Of a DNA stretch of 41,216 bases, positions 1 to 41,216 are shown one piece after another. The notes below the pieces were generated by a model. The model was not told the DNA's origin, ran no database searches, and saw only the letters and a list, made by a program, of their open reading frames with translations. Source of the DNA: a virus; IMG/VR virus record IMGVR_UViG_3300036782_000053, positions 1 through 41,216 of that record; one strand, written 5' to 3'. A program made the translations under genes and the position numbers. Within the stretch, counting starts at the first letter, position 1, and each line of letters begins with the position of its first letter.

Positions 1-127
1 TTAACGTTTTCATTAATGTTTTCATCTTCATCAACGTTAACATTACCATTAACATTGTTGTTAACGTTATTACCCTGTTCATCTTCACCACTTCTTGTAG
101 CACTTTCTCCAAATAAATCAGCTAATT
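1..127. repeat. Terminal overlap: bases 1-127 are identical to 41090-41216 (closure of a 41,089-bp circle, or terminal redundancy)
   Basis: Base-by-base comparison of the two window ends: ttaacgttttcattaatgttttcatc...ctccaaataaatcagctaatt is present at both. An ORF reads continuously across the junction. Confidence 0.95.
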
Positions 128-146
128 CGCGCTCCTTCAAAATCAT
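1..146 (-). CDS. 5' part of the ParG-like ribbon-helix-helix partition protein gene. Full gene = 146..1 joined to 41089..40852, 127 aa.
   Basis: ATG at 146, 4 nt after AAGGAG, overlapping the parA 3' end by 29 nt. Translation: MILKERELADLFGESATRSGEDEQGNNVNNNVNGNVNVDEDENINENVNEEENGNNNPKEPEVKKKANEDILELLKDNNDKKVVGFHLDKDVRDAFQKLLGKKPKRGDQSKIANKIFRDFFEERGLL. Missing from the ORF track because the window edge splits it. Confidence 0.65.
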   Translation of the reverse strand, partial: MILKERELADLFGESATRSGEDEQGNNVNNNVNGNVNVDEDENINENV

Positions 147-915
147 TCAGCTCCTTAAATAAATTCTTATAATAAAATGCAAATTCATTATCTTTTTTAG
201 TAAGTGTAAGTGGTAATTGGTTATAAGCAATCGAATTAGCAAATTGAATAGTTCTAGGGATATTAGCTTTAAAGAAGTGAATGCCTTCTTTCTCACAAAA
301 ACGACTTGCTTGTTTCATCGCTTCTGTATGAAGCTTAGTATTCTTTTGAACTAATGTAGCTACAACTCCAGTAATCTCTAAATTAGGATTATGTTTATTT
401 TTAAATTGACCAATTACATCGATTATTTTTATTAGTGATCGTACGGAATATTGTTCCGGTTGGAAAGGAATAATAATTTTATCCGTACAGCAAATTACAT
501 TACTTTGTATTAACCCTGAAGATGGTGGGCTATCAAATAAGATTACATCGTAATCGTCTTCCACAGACATTAACGCCACCTTTAAAAGTAAAAATGGATT
601 TATGTATTTATCTAAGTTAGGCAATATATCGAAATCTAAAAAGCTCATCATTTCATTAGACGGTAATACATCGATGTTCTCATGAACATTAACTATCGCT
701 TCACTTGCCGGTGCAAAATGAACTAAAACATCGTGCAATGTAGTACGATACTTGTCCGGATTCTTCCCGAAAGACAACAGTGAATTCCCTTGTTGGTCAG
801 CATCCACAATTAGAACACGTTTACCTTGTTTCGCATAAAGTCCAGCTAAATTTACAGTCATTGAAGACTTTAACACGCCGCCTTTATTCTGTACGAAAGC
901 TAATTTATAAGCCAT
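118..915 (-). CDS. parA: ParA/Soj-family partition ATPase (small type-Ib form, no N-terminal HTH)
   Basis: 265-aa ORF. Deviant Walker A NKGGVLKSS near the N terminus, plus VDADQQGN and LFDSPPS motifs. GGAGG 7 nt upstream of the ATG at 915. Confidence 0.9.
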   Translation of the reverse strand: MAYKLAFVQNKGGVLKSSMTVNLAGLYAKQGKRVLIVDADQQGNSLLSFGKNPDKYRTTLHDVLVHFAPASEAIVNVHENIDVLPSNEMMSFLDFDILPNLDKYINPFLLLKVALMSVEDDYDVILFDSPPSSGLIQSNVICCTDKIIIPFQPEQYSVRSLIKIIDVIGQFKNKHNPNLEITGVVATLVQKNTKLHTEAMKQASRFCEKEGIHFFKANIPRTIQFANSIAYNQLPLTLTKKDNEFAFYYKNLFKELNDFEGARIS

Positions 916-934
916 TCTGATACCTCCATTAAAT

Positions 935-1004
935 TTACATTAACAACAACGTTAACGTTTATATTAATAATTACATTAACGTTAATGATTATGTTTATAT
1001 TAAT
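935..1004. promoter_or_regulatory. par promoter region with two tandem ~35-bp modules carrying perfect palindromes (AACGTTAACGTT, ATTAACGTTAAT); candidate parS/operator
   Basis: TTACATTAACAACAACGTTAACGTTTATATTAATAA (935-970) followed by TTACATTAACGTTAATGATTATGTTTATATTAAT (971-1004), immediately upstream of parA. The second module recurs 30/34 at 40754-40787. Confidence 0.55.
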
Positions 1005-1411: not shown

Positions 1412-1540
1412 TTAACTGCCGCCCGGATCAACCATCATATACTTAACCGGGCTTGTCTGATCTACTTTATCAACATTTCCAAATACTCCGAATCCAAATG
1501 CCCCTACGCACATCATTAGTGCAACTAGTTTCTTTTTCAT
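1412..1540 (-). CDS. 42-aa secreted signalling pre-peptide (AimP/Phr-like)
   Basis: Its ATG overlaps the receptor stop codon (ATGA at 1537-1540). Translation MKKKLVALMMCVGAFGFGVFGNVDKVDQTSPVKYMMVDPGGS has a KKK n-region, a hydrophobic core and a polar C-terminal pro-region. Not in the ORF track. Confidence 0.7.
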   Translation of the reverse strand: MKKKLVALMMCVGAFGFGVFGNVDKVDQTSPVKYMMVDPGGS

Positions 1541-2667
1541 TGTAGTAATTCCCCTTTGCTCATTAGTATGTTCTTACATAACTGGCCATAGAAACTTAAT
1601 CCTGATAATTCAAATTCTAGTAAGGCTTGTTTAATGCCTTCTAAATTCCCAATACATTTACTATAAGTAAATCGTTGGAAAGGACTAAAACCTTCTATCT
1701 CCATTTCTTTAAAAAGTGACAATCCCAGTTTCCGATCCCCAAAATTATATTCATAATTAGCTTTTTCGTTCTTGTGGATTGCCGACAAATTAATCTCTTT
1801 AATATTAATCTCATAATTTAGCCTTACATGTGCAAGTGTTGACTGAAAAGCTACATATTTTTGAGATTTTAAAGGAACATTAACTTCTCCCAATTTTTCA
1901 ATTGCCTTTGATATGTATTCAATTGATTTAGATGGAGATTCAAATTGATAGCTTTCTCCCAAACAACAAAAGGCAGTTGCTTGAATAATTGGAATATCTA
2001 TGCAAGAGTTGATTATTTTATAGCATGTATCTCTACATTCATCAAGTTGCACTCTCCATAAATACATGTACGCTTTTCGTTCATCAGCTAACATGCGTAA
2101 GTAATCCTTAATAATACCTTCTCGTAGTTTTTCTAAATTTTGTTCCATTGCATCCACATATTGAATGATTGCATTGTTATTTGGCATATCCGCAAGTGAT
2201 AACATTAATAGAATGTTTACCATCACCTGACAATGTGGATTGGAGGAAAAGCGCTTGCTACTTAATTCATTGTAAAGTTCTTTACCTCTTAATTCGTTCT
2301 TATTTCTTTTGTTAAAAAGTTTATATATGCTGAAGAATATTCCTAAATTAGTTTTCTGTTCATTTTTAGTTATTAAGTGATTCATAAGATCGTACTCACC
2401 TTTAACTTGGCAATATATTAAACCAACTTCAATATTCGATATACTTTCACATTTACTAAAGTATTCACTAGTAATTTCCCTTTTCTCGCTTTGCTTTTCA
2501 AATAAAAGATTAATAGCATCAAAGAACAATTTTACATCCATTTCATATTCACATGTAATCCCTCTTCTGAGCTTTTCACGACTCACTTTAAGTTTTTCAG
2601 CAAAACCTCTTCTTGAATATCCTAGGGATTCCATTCTACTTAATAAATGATTCATAACTCGTTGCAT
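1537..2667 (-). CDS. RRNPP-family (AimR-like) HTH plus helical-repeat peptide receptor/transcription regulator
   Basis: 376 aa. N-terminal HTH-like segment LGYSRRGFAEKLKVSREKLRRGI, then about 300 aa of helical repeat-like sequence. GGAAGGGG RBS. Size and architecture match AimR, and it is coupled to a small secreted-peptide gene. Confidence 0.7.
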   Translation of the reverse strand: MQRVMNHLLSRMESLGYSRRGFAEKLKVSREKLRRGITCEYEMDVKLFFDAINLLFEKQSEKREITSEYFSKCESISNIEVGLIYCQVKGEYDLMNHLITKNEQKTNLGIFFSIYKLFNKRNKNELRGKELYNELSSKRFSSNPHCQVMVNILLMLSLADMPNNNAIIQYVDAMEQNLEKLREGIIKDYLRMLADERKAYMYLWRVQLDECRDTCYKIINSCIDIPIIQATAFCCLGESYQFESPSKSIEYISKAIEKLGEVNVPLKSQKYVAFQSTLAHVRLNYEINIKEINLSAIHKNEKANYEYNFGDRKLGLSLFKEMEIEGFSPFQRFTYSKCIGNLEGIKQALLEFELSGLSFYGQLCKNILMSKGELLQ

Positions 2668-2791
2668 GATTTTCCCCTTCCAGAAAAAATAAACCGTGTC
2701 CTAACGAATTTTCTCAAGTCGGAAACAAAATACGAGGAAAGAATATTGCGTTTTTGTGTTATACTTAGATGTGACTCGTATGTAGCAAAGT

Positions 2792-2873
2792 GTTTCCTAA
2801 GTACCAGTTAGGGAACGGTTCAAGAGATAGTTTGACAGCCGCCTCTTGAACGCGCTCATATGGGTCTTTTTTT
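2792..2873 (+). other. Two adjacent hairpins plus a T7 run in the noncoding region upstream of the receptor gene; possible small RNA or leader structure
   Basis: GTTTCCTAA-N7-TTAGGGAAC (2792-2816), GTTCAAGAG-N16-CTCTTGAAC (2818-2851), TTTTTTT at 2867-2873. No ORF on either strand. Confidence 0.25.
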
Positions 2874-2982
2874 CGTTCGTTATAGTTATTTTTAATACTA
2901 TCACGAATTTTCTAATTTTTGATGACTAGGTCACCTGATAATTGTTGAGAAAGTTTTTTTATTGTTATAAATCAAGATTTCG

Positions 2983-2996
2983 TTTTACATGTAAAA
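2983..2996. promoter_or_regulatory. 14-bp perfect palindrome TTTTACATGTAAAA; possible operator
   Basis: Read directly. Lies in the AT-rich divergent region between the receptor gene and the 3164 XRE gene. Confidence 0.3.
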
Positions 2997-3046
2997 TTTC
3001 ATATTAACTAATGATTTATTAGCGCATGAATATTTTACCATAAAAC

Positions 3047-3591: not shown

Positions 3592-4479
3592 TTAGCTCTC
3601 TTCTTTTCTGTTTTTACCTAGTAACTCAGCTAAACGTTTTTGGTTTTCTTCTATATCTTCAGTAGCTTGTCCATTGTCTTCCACAGTTACTACTTCATTA
3701 TCTTCTTTTAACCACTCAGGGGCCATTTCAGTACGTACATATTTAGAACCTGATACTTTTGCTTTACCTTGTCTTACTTTCTGTTTCTGGCCAAGCTTAG
3801 ACATCTTTTCTTCCACAACCTTTATGACATAGTTTTCAGCAGCAACTAGATCGGTAGTTCCGATTGCTTTGCATTTACTAGTAACATCATGAATTGCTTT
3901 AATAGTTTTTTGGTTTGTAATCTCTCGCTCTTTGATCTTTGAATTCATTAAATCAAGAATCATAGATTCAGTGACAGGGTTAGTTATAATTTCTTCTTCT
4001 TCTTTTTCTTTAATTAAGTCTTTTTTTATAATATCTTTCTTATCTCTTGGTTTTGAGGTCTTCATTTTGAGGTCTTGAAAATCAAGTCCCCAAATTTGAC
4101 CGTGTTCTTTTTCGGCATAAGCAAGAATCTCTTCACGTTCTTCAGCTGTGAATGGCTTGATACGATAGTAATATTCGTAGTCCCATTTCTTACCCACACG
4201 AAACTTATATTCAATGATGTAATTAGCATCCATTAATTCTTTCCATGCATTTTTTACAGATACTTCTTTATTCTTTCCATAACGTTTGTACAGTTCTGTT
4301 TTATGTAATTCCCATTCTTCAGTGTTGTAAGACCAAAGATTAACGATTAATCCTAATGCTTGTAATGAAAGACAACTTTCTGGATCATCATTATTTTTTC
4401 GCGTTTCAACTGCAACTGCTGTTTTGTTTGGTACTTCCACATATTCTTTTTCTAGTTTCCATTTTTTCATTTTAGCCAT
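3592..4479 (-). CDS. Putative plasmid/prophage replication initiator (winged-helix Rep or DnaD-like), 295 aa
   Basis: GGAGG RBS before ATG 4479 (MAKMKKWKLEKEY). The N-terminal half resembles RepA_N-type initiators of Firmicute plasmids (LSLQALGLIVNLWSY...VKNAWKELMDANYI). Charged low-complexity linker. Sits between the repressor and partition genes. Confidence 0.5.
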   Translation of the reverse strand: MAKMKKWKLEKEYVEVPNKTAVAVETRKNNDDPESCLSLQALGLIVNLWSYNTEEWELHKTELYKRYGKNKEVSVKNAWKELMDANYIIEYKFRVGKKWDYEYYYRIKPFTAEEREEILAYAEKEHGQIWGLDFQDLKMKTSKPRDKKDIIKKDLIKEKEEEEIITNPVTESMILDLMNSKIKEREITNQKTIKAIHDVTSKCKAIGTTDLVAAENYVIKVVEEKMSKLGQKQKVRQGKAKVSGSKYVRTEMAPEWLKEDNEVVTVEDNGQATEDIEENQKRLAELLGKNRKEES

Positions 4480-4563
4480 AATAAAAAATCCTCCATTTAC
4501 CTGCCCGACAAAAATTGGGTGTAGCAAAATAAAGGATTTGTATTTACGTTTTTTTAAGTTTAT

Positions 4564-4580
4564 GATACTATCAAAGTATC
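4564..4580. promoter_or_regulatory. Inverted repeat GATACT-ATCAA-AGTATC in the rep promoter region, containing the 12-mer ACTATCAAAGTA found in the 38.6-kb array
   Basis: Perfect 6-bp arms. The 12-mer at 4567-4578 is identical to the array unit at 38646-38657. Overlaps TTGATA -35-like hexamers on the minus strand. Confidence 0.5.
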
Positions 4581-38236: not shown

Positions 38237-38476
38237 TTACATCCAAAAATCATGTTCATCTATATTCTTACCTAACTTTTTTAATCCCTTAACAATTTGA
38301 ATTATCGTTGAAAACTTCGGTCTATATTTTTTATCATTACACACTTTAGAAATTGTCGCTGTACTTAGTTTCGATGTTCTTTCTAATTCAATTTGTGCTA
38401 TTCCATTCCGATCAAGATAGTGACCAAATTTTGTGCGTTTTTTCCCCAATCCAAACACGTTTATCACCTCATCCAC
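38237..38476 (-). CDS. XRE-like HTH regulator (73-79 aa)
   Basis: FGHYLDRNGIAQIELERTSKLSTATISKVCND HTH. Alternative GTG start at 38458 after GAGGTG. Divergent from the FtsK-like operon. Confidence 0.7.
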   Translation of the reverse strand: MDEVINVFGLGKKRTKFGHYLDRNGIAQIELERTSKLSTATISKVCNDKKYRPKFSTIIQIVKGLKKLGKNIDEHDFWM

Positions 38477-38547
38477 ATCTTGACCTATTTCTTACTTTTT
38501 TAAACTAATGCAAAAAAATAAGAAATTGTCCAAGCTGTACACCATAT

Positions 38548-38697
38548 GCTTTATCAAGGTCGCTACCAAAGTAGCTATCAAACTTGTTATCAAAGCAGCT
38601 ACCAAAGTAAATAGCTTAATCGCTATCAAGGTAACTAGTATTTGTACTATCAAAGTAGCTATCAAGTTAGCTATCAAAGTAATACTATCAAGGTATT
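38548..38697. repeat. Array of about 12 phased 12-bp direct repeats, consensus GCTATCAAAGTA (iteron/centromere-like)
   Basis: TATCAA or TACCAA cores at 38552, 38564, 38576, 38588, 38600, (38612 degenerate), 38624, (38636 degenerate), 38648, 38660 and 38672, then 38686. Exact 12-bp phasing for 11 units. Confidence 0.85.
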
Positions 38698-38757
38698 AGG
38701 GCGATAAACCTATGTATCATCAGGATTTTAAATTCTGTTTATAAAGGGGAGTTTTAT

Positions 38758-38952
38758 ATGTTAACAACATTTATTTCATTGGGAGTTTTAGGAGCAACAA
38801 CAATTGGTGGGGCGATATTAGAAAAGCATCTTGTAAAAAATGATCACGTTGCAGCAGCTAAACTTTTAAGTGATGGAATGTATCACGGAATGAGGATAGG
38901 TGGAGTTTGTTTCATTGGTTATGTGTTTATCAAAATCTTAATCATGTTCTAG
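38758..38952 (+). CDS. Small two-TM membrane protein (64 aa)
   Basis: AAAGGGGAG RBS. Hydrophobic N- and C-terminal segments. First gene of the FtsK-like operon. Confidence 0.6.
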   Translation: MLTTFISLGVLGATTIGGAILEKHLVKNDHVAAAKLLSDGMYHGMRIGGVCFIGYVFIKILIMF

Positions 38953-38962
38953 GAGGTGTCGC

Positions 38963-40129
38963 ATGGGAATCATCAAAGAATGGCTTCATAAACAAAGTTT
39001 AAAGAATCAACTTATAGAGGTATTTGGAAAAGCAGGTTTATACGTGGACCATCAAACAAGGGGTGGCAAAGTTCCAATTTATCCAAAGATACATGCCATT
39101 TCCTCCACACAAGGAAGTGTTAGATATATATTCACCATTCCAAATGGTTTGGATCCTAAGACCATCGAAAAGAAATGGTTTTGTTTTCAACAAATATTAG
39201 GTCGTAATGTAGCGATTGAGGGCGATATTAAAAAGTTTGTACTAAATGTATTTCATTCAGATGCAGGACTAAAACAATACAACTACAGTTATAAGAAGTG
39301 GCAGCCGTTACTAAAACAACATCGTCTTCCTATTGTGGTGGGTCGTGACCAATTAGGCAATATGATTGTGTACGATATGGTTGAAGCCAATACACCACAT
39401 TTGCTGATAGCAGGAGAAACAGGTAGTGGTAAAAGTAGTATGGTACGTGTTGTTCTGTCCACACTTATTCAATGCATGTCACCTGATAAATTACATTTGT
39501 ACTTAGGAGACTTAAAGAACTCTGAATTTCATTTCTTGCGAAGAGTGAAACACGTAAAAGAAGTGTGCATGGAAGAAATCGAAATGAAGATAATGTTGCA
39601 GAAAGTGTGGAAGGAAATACGCGAACGTAGAAAGTTGATGGAAGAGTATGAAGTGGATCATATTGATGAATATAACAAATTGAATCCCGATAATCAGAAA
39701 CCATATATTTTATTAGCGATCGATGAAGTAGCAATGCTGCAAGATGAAAAAGAATGTATGACTACAATTGAAAAGATTTCAGCAGTCGGCCGATCACTGG
39801 GGGTGTTTCTTATGCTTAGTATGCAACGACCAGATGCAAAAGTATTAGATGGTAAGTTAAAGCTCAATATGACAGTAAGAATGGGCTTTAAATGTGATAG
39901 TACGATTAATAGCAATATCATGGGTACACCTGGTTCAGAACACTTGGAGAAATCAGGCCAAATGATGTTAAAACTAAATGGATTAAAGAAAGTGCAAGCT
40001 CCTTATTTAGAATTAAGTAAGGCGAAACAGATTGTTGAACCATATCGCATACCAAAAGAGGATATAACGCTTCATATTCCTCCACAAGAAGAGATTCCAT
40101 TGTTCGGGGTGTTAGAAGATGAGGAATAG
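38963..40129 (+). CDS. FtsK/SpoIIIE-family DNA translocase-like ATPase (motor domain only)
   Basis: Walker A AGETGSGKSS, Walker B LLAIDEVAML, SMQRP motif. AGGAGG RBS. Confidence 0.85.
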   Translation: MGIIKEWLHKQSLKNQLIEVFGKAGLYVDHQTRGGKVPIYPKIHAISSTQGSVRYIFTIPNGLDPKTIEKKWFCFQQILGRNVAIEGDIKKFVLNVFHSDAGLKQYNYSYKKWQPLLKQHRLPIVVGRDQLGNMIVYDMVEANTPHLLIAGETGSGKSSMVRVVLSTLIQCMSPDKLHLYLGDLKNSEFHFLRRVKHVKEVCMEEIEMKIMLQKVWKEIRERRKLMEEYEVDHIDEYNKLNPDNQKPYILLAIDEVAMLQDEKECMTTIEKISAVGRSLGVFLMLSMQRPDAKVLDGKLKLNMTVRMGFKCDSTINSNIMGTPGSEHLEKSGQMMLKLNGLKKVQAPYLELSKAKQIVEPYRIPKEDITLHIPPQEEIPLFGVLEDEE

Positions 40130-40727
40130 AGATAAAGCGATACTAAGTGATTTGAGCCGTTTCAGATGTATGTCTCGTGATGATATTATAGATTTACATT
40201 TTCATGGAGTGAAAAACGCAGTTACTTGCTGTAATACAGTGATGAAACGATTAAGAAGAGATGGTCATGTGGATGCCAATATTTCGCAGCAGCCATTTAT
40301 ATATTTCCCTCAACCTAGTACACTTCGTAAAACTAGCCAAAAGATTCCCCACTTCCTCGGTATTGTGGACGTATACAAACAGCTTATACATTATGAAAAA
40401 CCTAAACTATTTAGAGTTGAACCGAAATACGGAAAAGATTATATGGAGCCCGATGCATTTACAATATGGCGTAGATCTCCATTCTTTATTGAAGTCCAGA
40501 AGTCGGTTTACAGTAAAAAGATTATGCAAGATAAAATAGACAGGTATGAATTATACTTCCACAGTCAAGAATGGCATAGTGAGTCCTGGCAACCGAAAGA
40601 CTCTAAATTTTTTCCATCGATTTTAATAATTACTGAAAAGAAATACGACTTAAATTCCTCCAATTTGCGTATCTTTCAAGCGACATCTATACATGATTTC
40701 ATGGATACATTAGCGGTTAAATCCTAA
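40119..40727 (+). CDS. Replication-relaxation family protein
   Basis: 202 aa. N-terminal winged-helix-like ILSDLSRFRCMSRDDIIDLHF...VMKRLRRDGHV. Overlaps the FtsK-like gene by 11 nt. Confidence 0.65.
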   Translation: MRNRDKAILSDLSRFRCMSRDDIIDLHFHGVKNAVTCCNTVMKRLRRDGHVDANISQQPFIYFPQPSTLRKTSQKIPHFLGIVDVYKQLIHYEKPKLFRVEPKYGKDYMEPDAFTIWRRSPFFIEVQKSVYSKKIMQDKIDRYELYFHSQEWHSESWQPKDSKFFPSILIITEKKYDLNSSNLRIFQATSIHDFMDTLAVKS

Positions 40728-40730
40728 GAA

Positions 40731-40755
40731 AACCCTACTTAGTCGTGGGGTTTTT
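40731..40755 (+). terminator. Terminator after the replication-relaxation gene
   Basis: AACCCTAC-TTAGTC-GTGGGGTT followed by TTT. Confidence 0.7.
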
Positions 40756-40822
40756 ACATTAACGTTAATATTAATGTTTATATTAACAATAACATTTACA
40801 TTATTTTTAACGTAATCATTAA
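40754..40822. repeat. Second set of par-type modules downstream of the ParG-like gene
   Basis: TTACATTAACGTTAATATTAATGTTTATATTAAC (40754-40787) matches 971-1004 at 30/34 positions. A degenerate second copy TTACATTATTTTTAACGTAATCATTAAC follows at 40795-40822. Confidence 0.6.
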
Positions 40823-40851: not shown

Positions 40852-41216
40852 TTATAATAAACCTCGTTCTTCAAAGAAATCACGGAATATTTTATTTGCA
40901 ATTTTTGATTGATCTCCGCGTTTTGGTTTTTTACCTAATAGCTTTTGAAAAGCATCACGAACATCTTTATCTAAATGAAATCCTACAACTTTTTTATCAT
41001 TGTTGTCTTTTAATAATTCGAGGATATCTTCATTTGCTTTCTTTTTAACTTCTGGCTCTTTTGGATTATTGTTACCATTTTCTTCTTCATTAACGTTTTC
41101 ATTAATGTTTTCATCTTCATCAACGTTAACATTACCATTAACATTGTTGTTAACGTTATTACCCTGTTCATCTTCACCACTTCTTGTAGCACTTTCTCCA
41201 AATAAATCAGCTAATT
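40852..41216 (-). CDS. ParG-like ribbon-helix-helix partition protein, 3' part (gene truncated by the window edge; first 19 nt are at 146..128)
   Basis: Translated codon by codon with no stop from 41216 down to TAA (40852-40854). The C-terminal KKVVGFHLDKDVRDAFQKLLGKKPKRGDQSKIANKIFRDFFEERG fits a beta-strand/helix/helix RHH layout. The N-terminal half is an N/V/D/E low-complexity tail. Confidence 0.65.
   Translation of the reverse strand, partial: LADLFGESATRSGEDEQGNNVNNNVNGNVNVDEDENINENVNEEENGNNNPKEPEVKKKANEDILELLKDNNDKKVVGFHLDKDVRDAFQKLLGKKPKRGDQSKIANKIFRDFFEERGLL
41090..41216. repeat. Second copy of the 127-bp terminal overlap (identical to 1-127)
   Basis: See the first feature. Confidence 0.95.

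What the first reader, a model, noticed from the sequence alone, without database searches (positions are those of the whole stretch)
38477..38757. Eleven exactly phased 12-bp repeats (GCTATCAAAGTA) plus a twelfth offset by 2 bp, in a divergent promoter region, with the same 12-mer inside an inverted repeat in the distant rep promoter
Seen in the sequence:
- TATCAA or TACCAA cores recur every 12 bp from 38552 to 38672 (two units are degenerate), with one more at 38686.
- Because 12 is a multiple of 3, the array creates two mirror ORFs (38492..38677 minus, 38508..38699 plus). Both have 4-aa periodic sequence and neither has an RBS.
- The exact unit ACTATCAAAGTA (38646-38657) also occurs at 4567-4578, embedded in the palindrome GATACT-ATCAA-AGTATC about 90 bp upstream of the Rep-like gene.
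- A given 12-mer is very unlikely to recur by chance in 41 kb.

Established knowledge:
- Iteron plasmids (pSC101, F, P1, pPS10) have direct repeats at oriV bound by Rep monomers, and an iteron-related inverted repeat in the rep promoter bound by dimers for autoregulation.
- Actinomycete TraB (FtsK-like) translocases load on arrays of short repeats (clt).

Inference, as competing hypotheses:
- (a) The array is the plasmid-mode oriV served by the Rep gene about 6.9 kb away across the junction.
- (b) It is a loading or recognition site for the adjacent FtsK-like ATPase or the replication-relaxation protein.
- (c) It is an extended operator of the adjacent XRE regulator.
Basis: partly seen in the sequence, partly recalled or inferred. 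Interest (0 to 1): 0.72.

Follow-up and report, generated by a model that had tools for sequence, protein, structure and literature searches.

The report
Repeat array serving a relaxase-like cassette
A real, strongly conserved row of twelve 12-bp repeats sits in front of a portable three-gene cassette (membrane protein, FtsK-like DNA pump, relaxase-like DNA-binding nuclease) found in many Bacillus phages and plasmids, and it most likely is the docking site on the DNA for that cassette's own nuclease, much like the repeat part of a conjugative transfer origin, not a replication origin.

Summary
Eleven 12-bp slots lie at 38550-38681: nine carry a TAYCAA core and two are degenerate. A twelfth unit follows at 38684-38695, offset by +2.

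The array is conserved and always linked to one cassette: small membrane protein, FtsK/SpoIIIE-family ATPase and PF13814 'replication-relaxation' protein. This holds in about 55 viral contigs and in every B. cereus-group plasmid locus inspected. It also holds in Camtrevirus and Hubeivirus phages and in the phi29-like phage DLc1.

- **Rep link:** every array-bearing phage in the collection lacks a Rep homologue. The 12-mer match in the rep promoter is no more than chance (P about 0.3) and is lost in a close relative.
- **XRE link:** the neighbouring XRE gene is replaced, moved or absent while the array stays. The XRE has its own TGTCC/GGACA operator.
- **PF13814 protein:** it models confidently as a winged helix plus a PD-(D/E)XK nuclease. 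This is the MOBC relaxase architecture.
- **Precedent:** TraX of pAD1 binds five direct repeats in its oriT. I found such repeats in a pAD1-like plasmid (11-bp period) and in pAM373 (12-bp period).

Best reading (confidence about 0.55): the array is the binding site of the cassette's own relaxase-like protein, an oriT-like site that probably also acts as an operator. Binding and function are untested.

The parts
38550..38681 (+). Eleven phased 12-bp slots in the register GCTAYCAARGTA. Nine carry the TAYCAA core. Slots 38610-38621 (AATAGCTTAATC) and 38634-38645 (ACTAGTATTTGT) are degenerate but are themselves conserved.
   Evidence: In 24 distinct same-length relatives the core columns are almost invariant, and variation is concentrated at the first two positions of each 12-mer.
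38684..38695 (+). Twelfth unit ACTATCAAGGTA, 14 bp rather than 12 bp after the eleventh.
   Evidence: The final 14-bp step is kept in nearly all relatives, including BtCS33, PfEFR-5, plasmid pBTHD789-3 (L093) and the phi29-like phage DLc1.
38696..38757 (+). Leader between the array and the first gene. It holds GATAAACC (38703-38710) 7 nt after the last unit, and the invariant TGTTTATAAAGGGGAG (38736-38751) at the ribosome-binding site.
   Evidence: The arrangement [unit]-N7-GATAAACC also lies upstream of the solo PF13814 gene of Geobacillus plasmid pGS18 (L088).
38475..38538 (.). Imperfect inverted repeat with 27-nt arms and a 10-nt loop. It ends in the TTGTCCAAG box (38526-38534) and is probably the operator of the divergent XRE-type gene, not part of the array.
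   Evidence: Arms co-vary in relatives (for example L029, BtCS33). The box is absent where the window-type XRE is absent, and it sits next to the XRE gene in L093.
38237..38476 (-). 79-aa HTH (XRE-type) regulator, divergent from the cassette operon.
   Evidence: Weak HTH_3 and HTH_26 matches just below the Pfam cut-offs. Homologues lie next to cassettes in BtCS33 and B. subtilis phage 268TH007. It is replaced by another family in PfEFR-5 and GBSV1.
38758..38952 (+). 64-aa small protein, first gene of the operon. Its sequence is hydrophobic and it is annotated 'phage related membrane protein' in SpaA1 and BceA1.
   Evidence: phrog_6470, E = 6.8e-36; annotation.
38963..40129 (+). 388-aa FtsK/SpoIIIE-family ATPase. 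Pfam detects no FtsK gamma domain.
   Evidence: PF01580, E = 1.3e-24 over residues 118-290. Best matches among solved structures are an FtsK/SpoIIIE-family protein (4nh0), the TcpA coupling protein (6o1w-6o1z) and FtsK.
40119..40727 (+). 202-aa PF13814 'replication-relaxation' (MOBC-superfamily) protein: an N-terminal winged helix followed by a PD-(D/E)XK nuclease domain. It is the proposed reader of the array.
   Evidence: PF13814 at 44.9 bits against a cut-off of 25.3. AlphaFold2 model with mean pLDDT 92.6. Fold matches to MecI/BlaI winged helices and to FokI, BspD6I and Can2 nucleases, all weak (best E = 0.003). E101, E110-P111-D112, E125, Q127 and K139 are invariant in 141 homologues.

Best explanation
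The array is the cis-acting site of a portable cassette: array, small membrane protein, FtsK/SpoIIIE-family ATPase and PF13814 protein.

**Proposed mechanism (all steps inferred).**
- Several copies of the PF13814 protein (winged helix plus PD-(D/E)XK nuclease, the MOBC-relaxase architecture) bind head to tail through their winged helices. Each occupies one 10-bp core TAYCAARGTA, and cores are spaced 12 bp apart.
- This builds a relaxosome-like nucleoprotein complex. The complex places the nuclease domain for a site-specific nick or cut nearby.
- It then hands the DNA to the membrane-tethered FtsK-like motor.
- Because the array lies in the control region just upstream of the operon, the same binding probably also autoregulates the cassette.

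The closest analogue is the direct-repeat 'bind' part of the pAD1/pAM373 transfer origin, read by the relaxase TraX.

**Shown:**
- The array is real.
- It is under purifying selection.
- It is inseparable from the cassette.
- It is independent of Rep and of the XRE gene.
- The cassette protein has the MOBC architecture.

**Inferred, not shown:**
- That this protein binds the array.
- That nicking occurs.
- What the DNA is pumped into: a co-resident conjugation channel, or another route.
For: **Linkage of array and cassette.**
- In 56 IMG/VR loci found through the FtsK-like protein, the array lies upstream of the operon in essentially all loci that include that region. Spacings are multiples of 12 with a final step of 14.
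- The reverse test scanned IMG/VR for two adjacent units. All 19 hits with six or more units belong to cassette-bearing contigs. In 18 the cassette lies within the fetched locus; the 19th locus ends before it. The 21 hits with only 2-3 units show no cassette.
- BtCS33, phiCM3, PfEFR-5, plasmid pBTHD789-3 and the phi29-like podovirus DLc1 all carry the array.

**Purifying selection.** Array columns are nearly invariant in 24 distinct relatives, while the 40 bp downstream vary.

**Family of the candidate reader.**
- PF13814 corresponds to the MobC relaxase superfamily (PMC5357655) and has a PD-(D/E)XK fold (PMC3424549).
- TraX of pAD1 has an N-terminal winged helix and binds five direct repeats 70-120 bp from the nic site (PMC12857230).

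**Precedent checked directly.**
- pAM373 carries 5.5 copies of a 12-bp repeat (GCCTAAAGGTAT) between its coupling-protein gene and its PF13814 gene.
- A pAD1-like plasmid carries 4.6 copies of an 11-bp repeat at the same place.

**Structure.** The model has mean pLDDT 92.6. It shows a winged helix at residues 3-64 and an alpha-beta-beta-beta-alpha-beta nuclease core at residues 76-200. Fold matches are of those two kinds. The acidic residues are invariant.

**Unit-like sites at solo PF13814 genes.**
- A pBtoxis-like plasmid has CTACAAAAGTAG inside an inverted repeat (L092).
- Plasmid pGS18 has TACCTTCGTA-N7-GATAAACC (L088).
Against: - No binding, nicking or transfer data exist for this subfamily.
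- Similarity to TraX is only at family level: BLASTP finds nothing, and hhalign gives 29% probability over the winged helix alone.
- Foldseek E-values are weak (best 0.003).
- No conserved large inverted repeat with a candidate nic site was found. The inverted repeat next to the array follows the XRE gene instead.
- Known MOBC relaxases pair with VirD4-type coupling proteins, not FtsK/TcpA-type ones (PMC5357655).
- The cassette also sits in phages with linear, protein-primed genomes (DLc1, Bfsp1). Conjugative mobilisation makes little sense for these.
- The solo-gene sites are single occurrences of a loose motif, so each is only weakly significant.
- The cores are partly palindromic (TACCNNGGTA in some clades). 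A dimeric reader of another kind is therefore not excluded.
Confidence: 0.55

Rival explanations
1. The array is only a transcriptional operator. Cooperative binding along the repeats, by the PF13814 protein or by an unidentified or host protein, represses or times the FtsK operon, with no role in DNA processing.
For: - The array lies in the control region between the divergent genes, just upstream of the operon.
- Each unit read on the minus strand contains TTGATA, which resembles a -35 element. One promoter-like site overlaps the array.
- The FtsK gene of the related phage Fah is reported as 'delayed early', which implies regulation (PMC4113786).
Against: - Twelve phased sites are far more than known operators need, and a final 14-bp step is kept across distant clades.
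- The candidate reader keeps an invariant nuclease active site. That points to DNA cleavage, not just repression.
- Operator function and cis-site function are not exclusive, and many transfer origins do both.
Confidence: 0.15
2. The array is a loading or recognition site read directly by the FtsK-like ATPase. This would resemble the 8-bp repeats of the Streptomyces clt locus read by TraB, or KOPS/SRS read by FtsK/SpoIIIE.
For: - The array and the ATPase gene are always linked.
- The ATPase belongs to the FtsK/SpoIIIE family and gives a weak match to the plasmid TraB model (41 bits).
Against: - Pfam detects no gamma or winged-helix recognition domain. The ATPase match covers residues 118-290 of 388, and the C-terminal tail is short and acidic.
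- The TraB match is far below its cut-off of 800 bits.
- Unit-like sites occur upstream of PF13814 genes that have no ATPase partner.
Confidence: 0.12
3. The array is the plasmid-mode replication origin: iterons bound by the 296-aa Rep encoded 7 kb away, with a related inverted repeat in the rep promoter.
For: - The element is a circular, ParA-bearing genome in which I found no integrase, so it needs an oriV.
- The 13-mer TACTATCAAAGTA is shared with the rep-promoter palindrome.
- Rep shows weak similarity to RepA-type initiators.
Against: - Rep has no homologue in any array-bearing phage of the phage collection. Those phages are integrative or protein-primed.
- The shared 13-mer is within chance (P = 0.31).
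- The shared core is lost in a close relative that keeps both rep and the array (L066 and L038).
- GC skew turns at about 5 kb and at the junction, not at the array.
Confidence: 0.03
4. The array is an extended operator of the adjacent 79-aa XRE regulator.
For: - The two are adjacent.
- An XRE-type gene is a frequent companion of the cassette, even in Geobacillus and B. subtilis phages.
Against: - No XRE homologue lies in the fetched loci of phiCM3 and DLc1.
- The XRE belongs to an unrelated family in PfEFR-5.
- It lies at the far end of the cassette in L093.
- The array is intact in all four cases.
- A different motif (TTGTCCAAG, or TGTCC..GGACA inverted repeats) tracks the window-type XRE.
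Confidence: 0.04
5. The array is a centromere, or a binding site for a host nucleoid or sporulation factor, unrelated to the cassette proteins.
For: - Arrays of short phased repeats are typical of plasmid centromeres.
- Fold matches of the winged helix include the centromere-binding protein AspA.
Against: - The element has its own parA, flanked by a different repeat family (ACATTAACGTT).
- Arrays never occur without the cassette in IMG/VR.
Confidence: 0.06

Closest known systems
[quoted passage not shown]
   Same: - A PF13814 protein (winged helix plus PD-(D/E)XK nuclease) is encoded next to a run of short, same-strand direct repeats.
- The repeat period is 11-12 bp: 12 bp with 5.5 copies in pAM373, and 11 bp with 4.6 copies in a pAD1-like plasmid.
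- An NTPase that moves DNA is encoded beside it.
- The repeats differ between relatives.
   Different: - Here there are 12 slots rather than 5.
- No conserved large inverted repeat with a nic site was found.
- The ATPase is of FtsK/SpoIIIE type, not VirD4 type.
- The protein is shorter (202 against 261 aa) and shows no pairwise similarity to TraX.
- The carriers are tailed phages and phage-plasmids without a type IV secretion system.
CloDF13 mobilisation region (MobB coupling protein, MobC relaxase, oriT)
   Same: A compact module that brings its own coupling-type NTPase together with a MOBC-family relaxase and a cis site (from my own knowledge and PMC3424549 ref. 157; PMC12857230).
   Different: - It is a Gram-negative plasmid.
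- MobB is VirD4-like.
- No comparable 12-bp array is known to me.
- It was not examined here.
Streptomyces TraB-clt system
   Same: An FtsK-like translocase is encoded beside a cis-acting cluster of short direct repeats that marks the DNA to be moved.
   Different: - TraB reads its 8-bp repeats with its own C-terminal winged helix. The ATPase here has no such domain detectable.
- Here a separate winged-helix nuclease is present.
- The match to the TraB model is far below its cut-off.
Iteron-type plasmid origins (pPS10, P1, F, pSC101)
   Same: Phased direct repeats, read by a winged-helix protein.
   Different: - The repeats do not travel with the Rep gene.
- The rep-promoter match is chance-level and not conserved.
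- The units are 12 bp rather than about 17-22 bp.

Membership tests
MOBC-type transfer origin / mobilisation module (pAD1 oriT2-TraX type) | A PF13814 (Replic_Relax / MobC superfamily) protein is encoded next to the site. | tested here: met
   The window protein (40119-40727) scores 44.9 bits against a cut-off of 25.3. The pAM373 TraX-like protein scores 27.1 bits on the same model.
MOBC-type transfer origin / mobilisation module (pAD1 oriT2-TraX type) | The protein has an N-terminal winged helix and a C-terminal PD-(D/E)XK nuclease with conserved acidic residues. | tested here: met
   AlphaFold2 model with mean pLDDT 92.6. Fold matches are to MecI/BlaI/MarR winged helices and to FokI, BspD6I, Can2 and Bax1 nucleases, all with weak E-values. 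E101, E110-P111-D112, E125 and Q127 are invariant in 141 sequences.
MOBC-type transfer origin / mobilisation module (pAD1 oriT2-TraX type) | A series of short direct repeats with a period of about 11-12 bp serves as the relaxase binding site. | tested here: met
   The sequence pattern is met: 12 slots at 12 bp here, 12 bp with 5.5 copies in pAM373, and 11 bp with 4.6 copies in a pAD1-like plasmid. Binding itself is not testable here.
MOBC-type transfer origin / mobilisation module (pAD1 oriT2-TraX type) | A large inverted repeat carrying the nic site lies next to the repeats. | tested here: inconclusive
   An imperfect inverted repeat with 27-nt arms abuts the array (38475-38538). However, it tracks the XRE gene and is missing in phiCM3 and DLc1. 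No nic site can be named.
MOBC-type transfer origin / mobilisation module (pAD1 oriT2-TraX type) | The partner coupling protein is of the VirD4 type. | tested here: not met
   The partner is an FtsK/SpoIIIE-family ATPase (PF01580). In streptococcal mobilisable elements MobC relaxases pair only with VirD4-type proteins (PMC5357655).
MOBC-type transfer origin / mobilisation module (pAD1 oriT2-TraX type) | Site-specific nicking and conjugative mobilisation occur. | not testable with these tools
   This needs nicking assays and mating experiments.
Iteron-type oriV with autoregulated Rep | The repeats co-occur with the cognate rep gene in related elements. | tested here: not met
   tblastn of Rep against 50,697 phage records gives no hit in any array-bearing phage. 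The array is present in phages with other replication modes.
Iteron-type oriV with autoregulated Rep | An iteron-related inverted repeat in the rep promoter is conserved as such. | tested here: not met
   The match is within chance (P = 0.31). The palindrome arms are conserved, but the array-like core is lost in L066 and differs in L069 and L070.
TraB-clt type (FtsK-like translocase reading its own repeats) | The translocase carries a C-terminal winged-helix (gamma-like) domain that reads the repeats. | tested here: not met
   Only PF01580 matches, over residues 118-290, and there is no Ftsk_gamma match. The TraB model scores 41 bits against a cut-off of 800.
Operator of the adjacent XRE regulator | The site co-varies with, and depends on, the regulator gene. 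| tested here: not met
   The array is kept with an unrelated, a relocated or an absent XRE gene. A different motif follows the XRE.

The most novel reading that the evidence does not exclude
The cassette is not a conjugative mobilisation module. It is a phage- and plasmid-borne DNA pump of the SpoIIIE kind with its own address label. The winged-helix nuclease marks the array. The membrane-anchored FtsK-like motor then moves the extrachromosomal genome across a closing septum, for instance into the forespore. This would explain why the cassette turns up even in lytic phi29-like phages. It would also fit its confinement so far to spore-forming Bacillaceae: Bacillus, Priestia, Geobacillus, Metabacillus, Sutcliffiella and Neobacillus.
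Probability: 0.12. Interest if true: 0.85.

Novelty: new variant of a known kind. Interest (0 to 1): 0.62.

Why it matters
The FtsK/SpoIIIE gene of gamma-like and related Bacillus cereus-group phages has been noted since 2005-2012. Its function has stayed unknown: the papers I could read only speculate about sporulation (PMC3359378, PMC4113786, PMC11526630). None mentions the repeat array or the relaxase nature of the neighbouring gene.

This analysis defines the unit of inheritance as array plus three genes. It shows that the unit is portable between siphoviruses, podoviruses, phage-plasmids and plasmids up to several hundred kb. It also gives a concrete, testable assignment: the array is the DNA site of the PF13814 protein.

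If the cassette mobilises DNA, tailed phages and phage-plasmids of the B. cereus group would carry their own transfer origin and relaxase, a second horizontal route besides infection. The pairing of a MOBC-like protein with an FtsK-type motor would also be new.

If the cassette instead serves entry into spores, that would be a new mechanism of phage persistence.

Tried and rejected
- **Rep link.** I tested it by simulation, by the rep promoters of relatives and by tblastn. Rejected.
- **XRE link.** I tested it by comparing XRE families and their positions. Rejected.
- **Known anti-phage defence system.** PADLOC has no match for the PF13814 protein and only generic HerA/SspH ATPase similarity for the FtsK-like protein. 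Not supported.
- **Coding repeat.** The mirror ORFs stay open in many relatives only because the unit has no stop codon. Variation follows a 12-nt pattern, not a 3-nt one, and start contexts are not conserved. Rejected.
- **Promoter assignment.** The consensus scan found no plus-strand promoter for the operon. It found one weak minus-strand site inside the array. Left open.
- **First structure prediction.** A shallow alignment (12 sequences, at least 85% identical) failed with pLDDT 41.6. A profile search seeded with B. cereus-group sequences returned only close relatives. A profile of distant members gave the diversity needed.
- **Distant cassettes.** GBSV1, 268TH007, PK2, Bfsp1, Priestia, B. 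luti, B. carboniphilus and three metagenomic loci show TAC..GTA-like units. Arrays there are short, irregular or absent. They did not give a clean co-variation test between motif and recognition helix.
- **Solo PF13814 genes.** Those in pBMB0233 and Bacillus sp. BS98 were uninformative: an IS21 insertion in one, a contig end in the other.
- **FtsK-like homologues without a PF13814 partner.** They are too distant (25-30% identity) to serve as a control.
- **GC skew.** It only mirrors gene orientation.
Full report
**1. The observation**

The region 38477-38757 is the intergenic space between a 79-aa HTH gene (38237-38476, minus strand) and a 64-aa ORF (38758-38952, plus strand).

- **Phasing.** TAYCAA cores start at 38552, 38564, 38576, 38588, 38600, 38624, 38648, 38660 and 38672. 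All share one 12-bp phase. The slots at 38612 and 38636 are degenerate. One more core lies at 38686, 14 bp after the previous one.
- **Tandem repeat call.** Tandem Repeats Finder reports period 12, 10.8 copies and consensus TATCAAAGTAGC.
- **Enrichment.** TAYCAARGTA occurs 8 times in the window against 0.46 expected, and six of the hits are in the array.
- **Mirror ORFs.** The two ORFs exist, but they follow mechanically from a 12-bp unit that has no stop codon.
- **Circularity.** The first 127 nt of the window equal the last 127 nt, so this is a circular assembly of 41,089 bp.

**2. The element**

The window is a siphovirus-like genome of the Bacillus cereus group. Beside a full set of structural and lysis genes, it carries:

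- ParA (118-915);
- an AimR arbitrium receptor (1537-2667);
- a cI-like repressor and a sigma factor;
- a primase-helicase.

I found no integrase among the proteins I scanned, so it looks like a phage-plasmid.

Downstream of the array lie three genes:

- The 64-aa small protein.
- A 388-aa FtsK/SpoIIIE-family ATPase. PF01580 matches residues 118-290 and there is no gamma domain.
- A 202-aa PF13814 'replication-relaxation' protein.

**3. The array belongs to a portable cassette**

The same order (array, small protein(s), ATPase, PF13814 protein) recurs widely:

- in BtCS33, phiCM3 and PfEFR-5;
- in 56 IMG/VR loci;
- in every B. cereus-group plasmid locus I inspected (L004, L093), out of 182 Bacillus plasmids (33 kb to several hundred kb) that match the cassette region by megablast;
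- in the phi29-like podovirus DLc1, where the cassette sits just after the packaging ATPase gene.

Two features of the architecture are kept. Spacings between units are multiples of 12. The last step is 14 bp in nearly every clade, including DLc1 and pBTHD789-3.

For the reverse test, I scanned IMG/VR for two adjacent units, which gave 40 loci. All 19 with six or more units belong to contigs that carry the cassette. The 21 with two or three units do not, and look like chance.

In 24 distinct relatives of identical length the array columns are almost invariant. This includes the two 'degenerate' slots. Variation falls on the first two positions of each 12-mer and on the 40 bp downstream. The array is therefore a selected DNA element with a 10-bp core and a 2-bp spacer. 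The pattern of variation has a 12-nt period, not a 3-nt one, which argues against coding.

**4. Not the Rep origin**

- tblastn of the 296-aa Rep against 50,697 phage records finds four weak partial hits, none in an array-bearing phage.
- The shared 13-mer (4566-4578) is not surprising. The array offers 290 distinct 12-mers over both strands. Simulations give a mean of 1.15 matches elsewhere in the window, with P(at least 2) = 0.31.
- In relatives the rep-promoter palindrome keeps its arms (GATACT/AGTATC) but not the array-like centre.
- Contig IMGVR_UViG_2687453290_000001 has a normal array (L038), yet its rep promoter reads GATACTTAAATAGTATC (L066). L069 and L070 have a different palindrome.
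- GC skew turns at about 5 kb and at the junction, following gene orientation.

**5. Not the XRE operator**

- The window-type XRE has homologues in BtCS33, in B. subtilis phage 268TH007 and in plasmid L093.
- PfEFR-5 and GBSV1 carry an unrelated XRE family.
- No homologue was found in the fetched loci of phiCM3 and DLc1.
- In L093 the gene lies downstream of the cassette.
- The array is intact in all B. cereus-group cases.

A separate motif, TTGTCCAAG or TGTCC..GGACA inverted repeats, accompanies the window-type XRE. It lies at 38475-38538 in the window and co-varies in relatives. It sits next to the relocated XRE gene in L093 and is absent from PfEFR-5, phiCM3 and DLc1. That motif, not the array, is the likely XRE operator.

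**6. The likely reader**

- **Family.** PF13814 is the Pfam family that CONJscan calls the MobC relaxase superfamily (PMC5357655). It was assigned to the PD-(D/E)XK fold in PMC3424549.
- **Prototype.** TraX of pAD1 has an N-terminal winged helix. It binds five direct repeats in oriT that lie 70-120 bp from the nic site (PMC12857230).
- **Precedent checked in sequence.**
  - pAM373 carries 5.5 copies of a 12-bp repeat (GCCTAAAGGTAT). They are followed by a large inverted repeat and lie between its coupling-protein gene and its PF13814 gene.
  - A pAD1-like plasmid has 4.6 copies of an 11-bp repeat at the same place, followed by the same inverted repeat.
- **Structure.** With a 141-sequence alignment the window protein models at mean pLDDT 92.6. 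It shows a winged helix at residues 3-64 and an alpha-beta-beta-beta-alpha-beta core at residues 76-200. Foldseek returns MecI/BlaI/MarR-type winged helices and FokI, BspD6I, Can2 and Bax1 nucleases, all with weak E-values, the best being 0.003.
- **Active site.** E101, E110-P111-D112, E125, Q127 and K139 are invariant, so a nuclease active site is maintained.
- **The ATPase.** It has no recognisable DNA-reading domain.
- **Solo genes.** Single unit-like sites lie about 90-100 bp upstream of PF13814 genes that have no ATPase partner. A pBtoxis-like plasmid has CTACAAAAGTAG in an inverted repeat. Plasmid pGS18 has TACCTTCGTA-N7-GATAAACC, the same arrangement as the last unit and GATAAACC in the window. 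This evidence is suggestive but weak.

**7. Mechanism proposed**

- Several PF13814 protomers bind head to tail on the 12-bp units.
- The offset last unit and the conserved leader position the nuclease domain.
- The complex engages the FtsK-like motor, which the small membrane protein would hold at the membrane.
- Binding in the control region would also regulate the operon.

Only the sequence-level facts are shown; binding, nicking and the destination of the DNA are inferred.

Points against a plain conjugative reading:

- The partner ATPase is not VirD4-like (PMC5357655).
- No nic-bearing inverted repeat is conserved.
- The cassette also occurs in linear, protein-primed phi29-like genomes.

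**8. Comparison and novelty**

The closest known system is the direct-repeat part of the pAD1/pAM373 oriT with TraX. The family-level features tested here are met: PF13814 membership, domain architecture and phased direct repeats. Two are not: a VirD4 partner and an identifiable nic inverted repeat. I therefore file it as a new variant of a known kind, not as a member of the pAD1 type.

The papers I could search describe the phage FtsK gene only as a possible sporulation-related gene. They do not mention the array or the relaxase-like neighbour (PMC3359378, PMC4113786, PMC11526630; searches).

**9. Verdict**

The array is real, selected and unassigned in the literature. Hypotheses (a) and (c), and the rep-promoter link, do not.

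Noticed in passing
window 1-127 and 41090-41216: The first 127 nt are identical to the last 127 nt. The window is a circular assembly with a unit length of 41,089 bp.
   Followed up: yes
window 927-1004, 40753-40803, 41078-41145 (= 1-56): A second repeat family (ACATTAACGTT-like, with periods of 6, 12 and 24 bp) flanks parA (118-915, minus strand). One block lies inside the small ORF downstream of parA that runs across the junction. It is a likely partition site. It is also a better place than the 12-bp array to look for plasmid-maintenance sites.
   Followed up: partly
window 1537-2667 (minus strand): An AimR-family arbitrium receptor (PF22871, E = 2e-22) lies on a phage-plasmid that carries ParA and in which I found no integrase. 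The expected small aimP gene downstream was not examined.
   Followed up: no
window 4564-4580: The rep-promoter palindrome GATACT-ATCAA-AGTATC keeps its arms in relatives while its centre changes (L066: TTAAA). It is replaced by TTACTTTTTCATGGTAA in L069 and L070. It behaves as an operator in its own right, unrelated to the array.
   Followed up: partly
window 38736-38751: TGTTTATAAAGGGGAG at the ribosome-binding site of the first operon gene is invariant in 24 relatives. It is recognisable in PfEFR-5, pBTHD789-3, DLc1, Bfsp1 and a metagenomic cassette, whatever the first gene is. That is more conservation than a Shine-Dalgarno sequence needs.
   Followed up: partly
window 38686-38710; L088 3405-3429: The last repeat unit followed after 7 nt by GATAAACC recurs upstream of the solo PF13814 gene of Geobacillus plasmid pGS18. 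It is a candidate core or nic region.
   Followed up: partly
window 38475-38538; L093 about 3900-3940: TTGTCCAAG / TGTCC..GGACA inverted repeats follow the window-type XRE gene and are its likely operator. The reverse complement GGACAA also resembles the SpoIIID consensus as I recall it. That resemblance was not tested.
   Followed up: partly
window 3592-4482 (minus strand): The 'Rep-like' protein has no Pfam match. It shows only weak similarity to RepA-type initiators and to the C-terminus of the B. subtilis helicase-loading protein DnaB. The true start is probably the ATG at 4480-4482, not the TTG at 4527.
   Followed up: partly
L049 and L050, about 2740-3020: One cassette clade has a looser array of near-perfect palindromes (TACCNNGGTA) at irregular spacing instead of a strict 12-bp phase. 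This suggests that the ancestral unit is a TACC/GGTA dyad.
   Followed up: no
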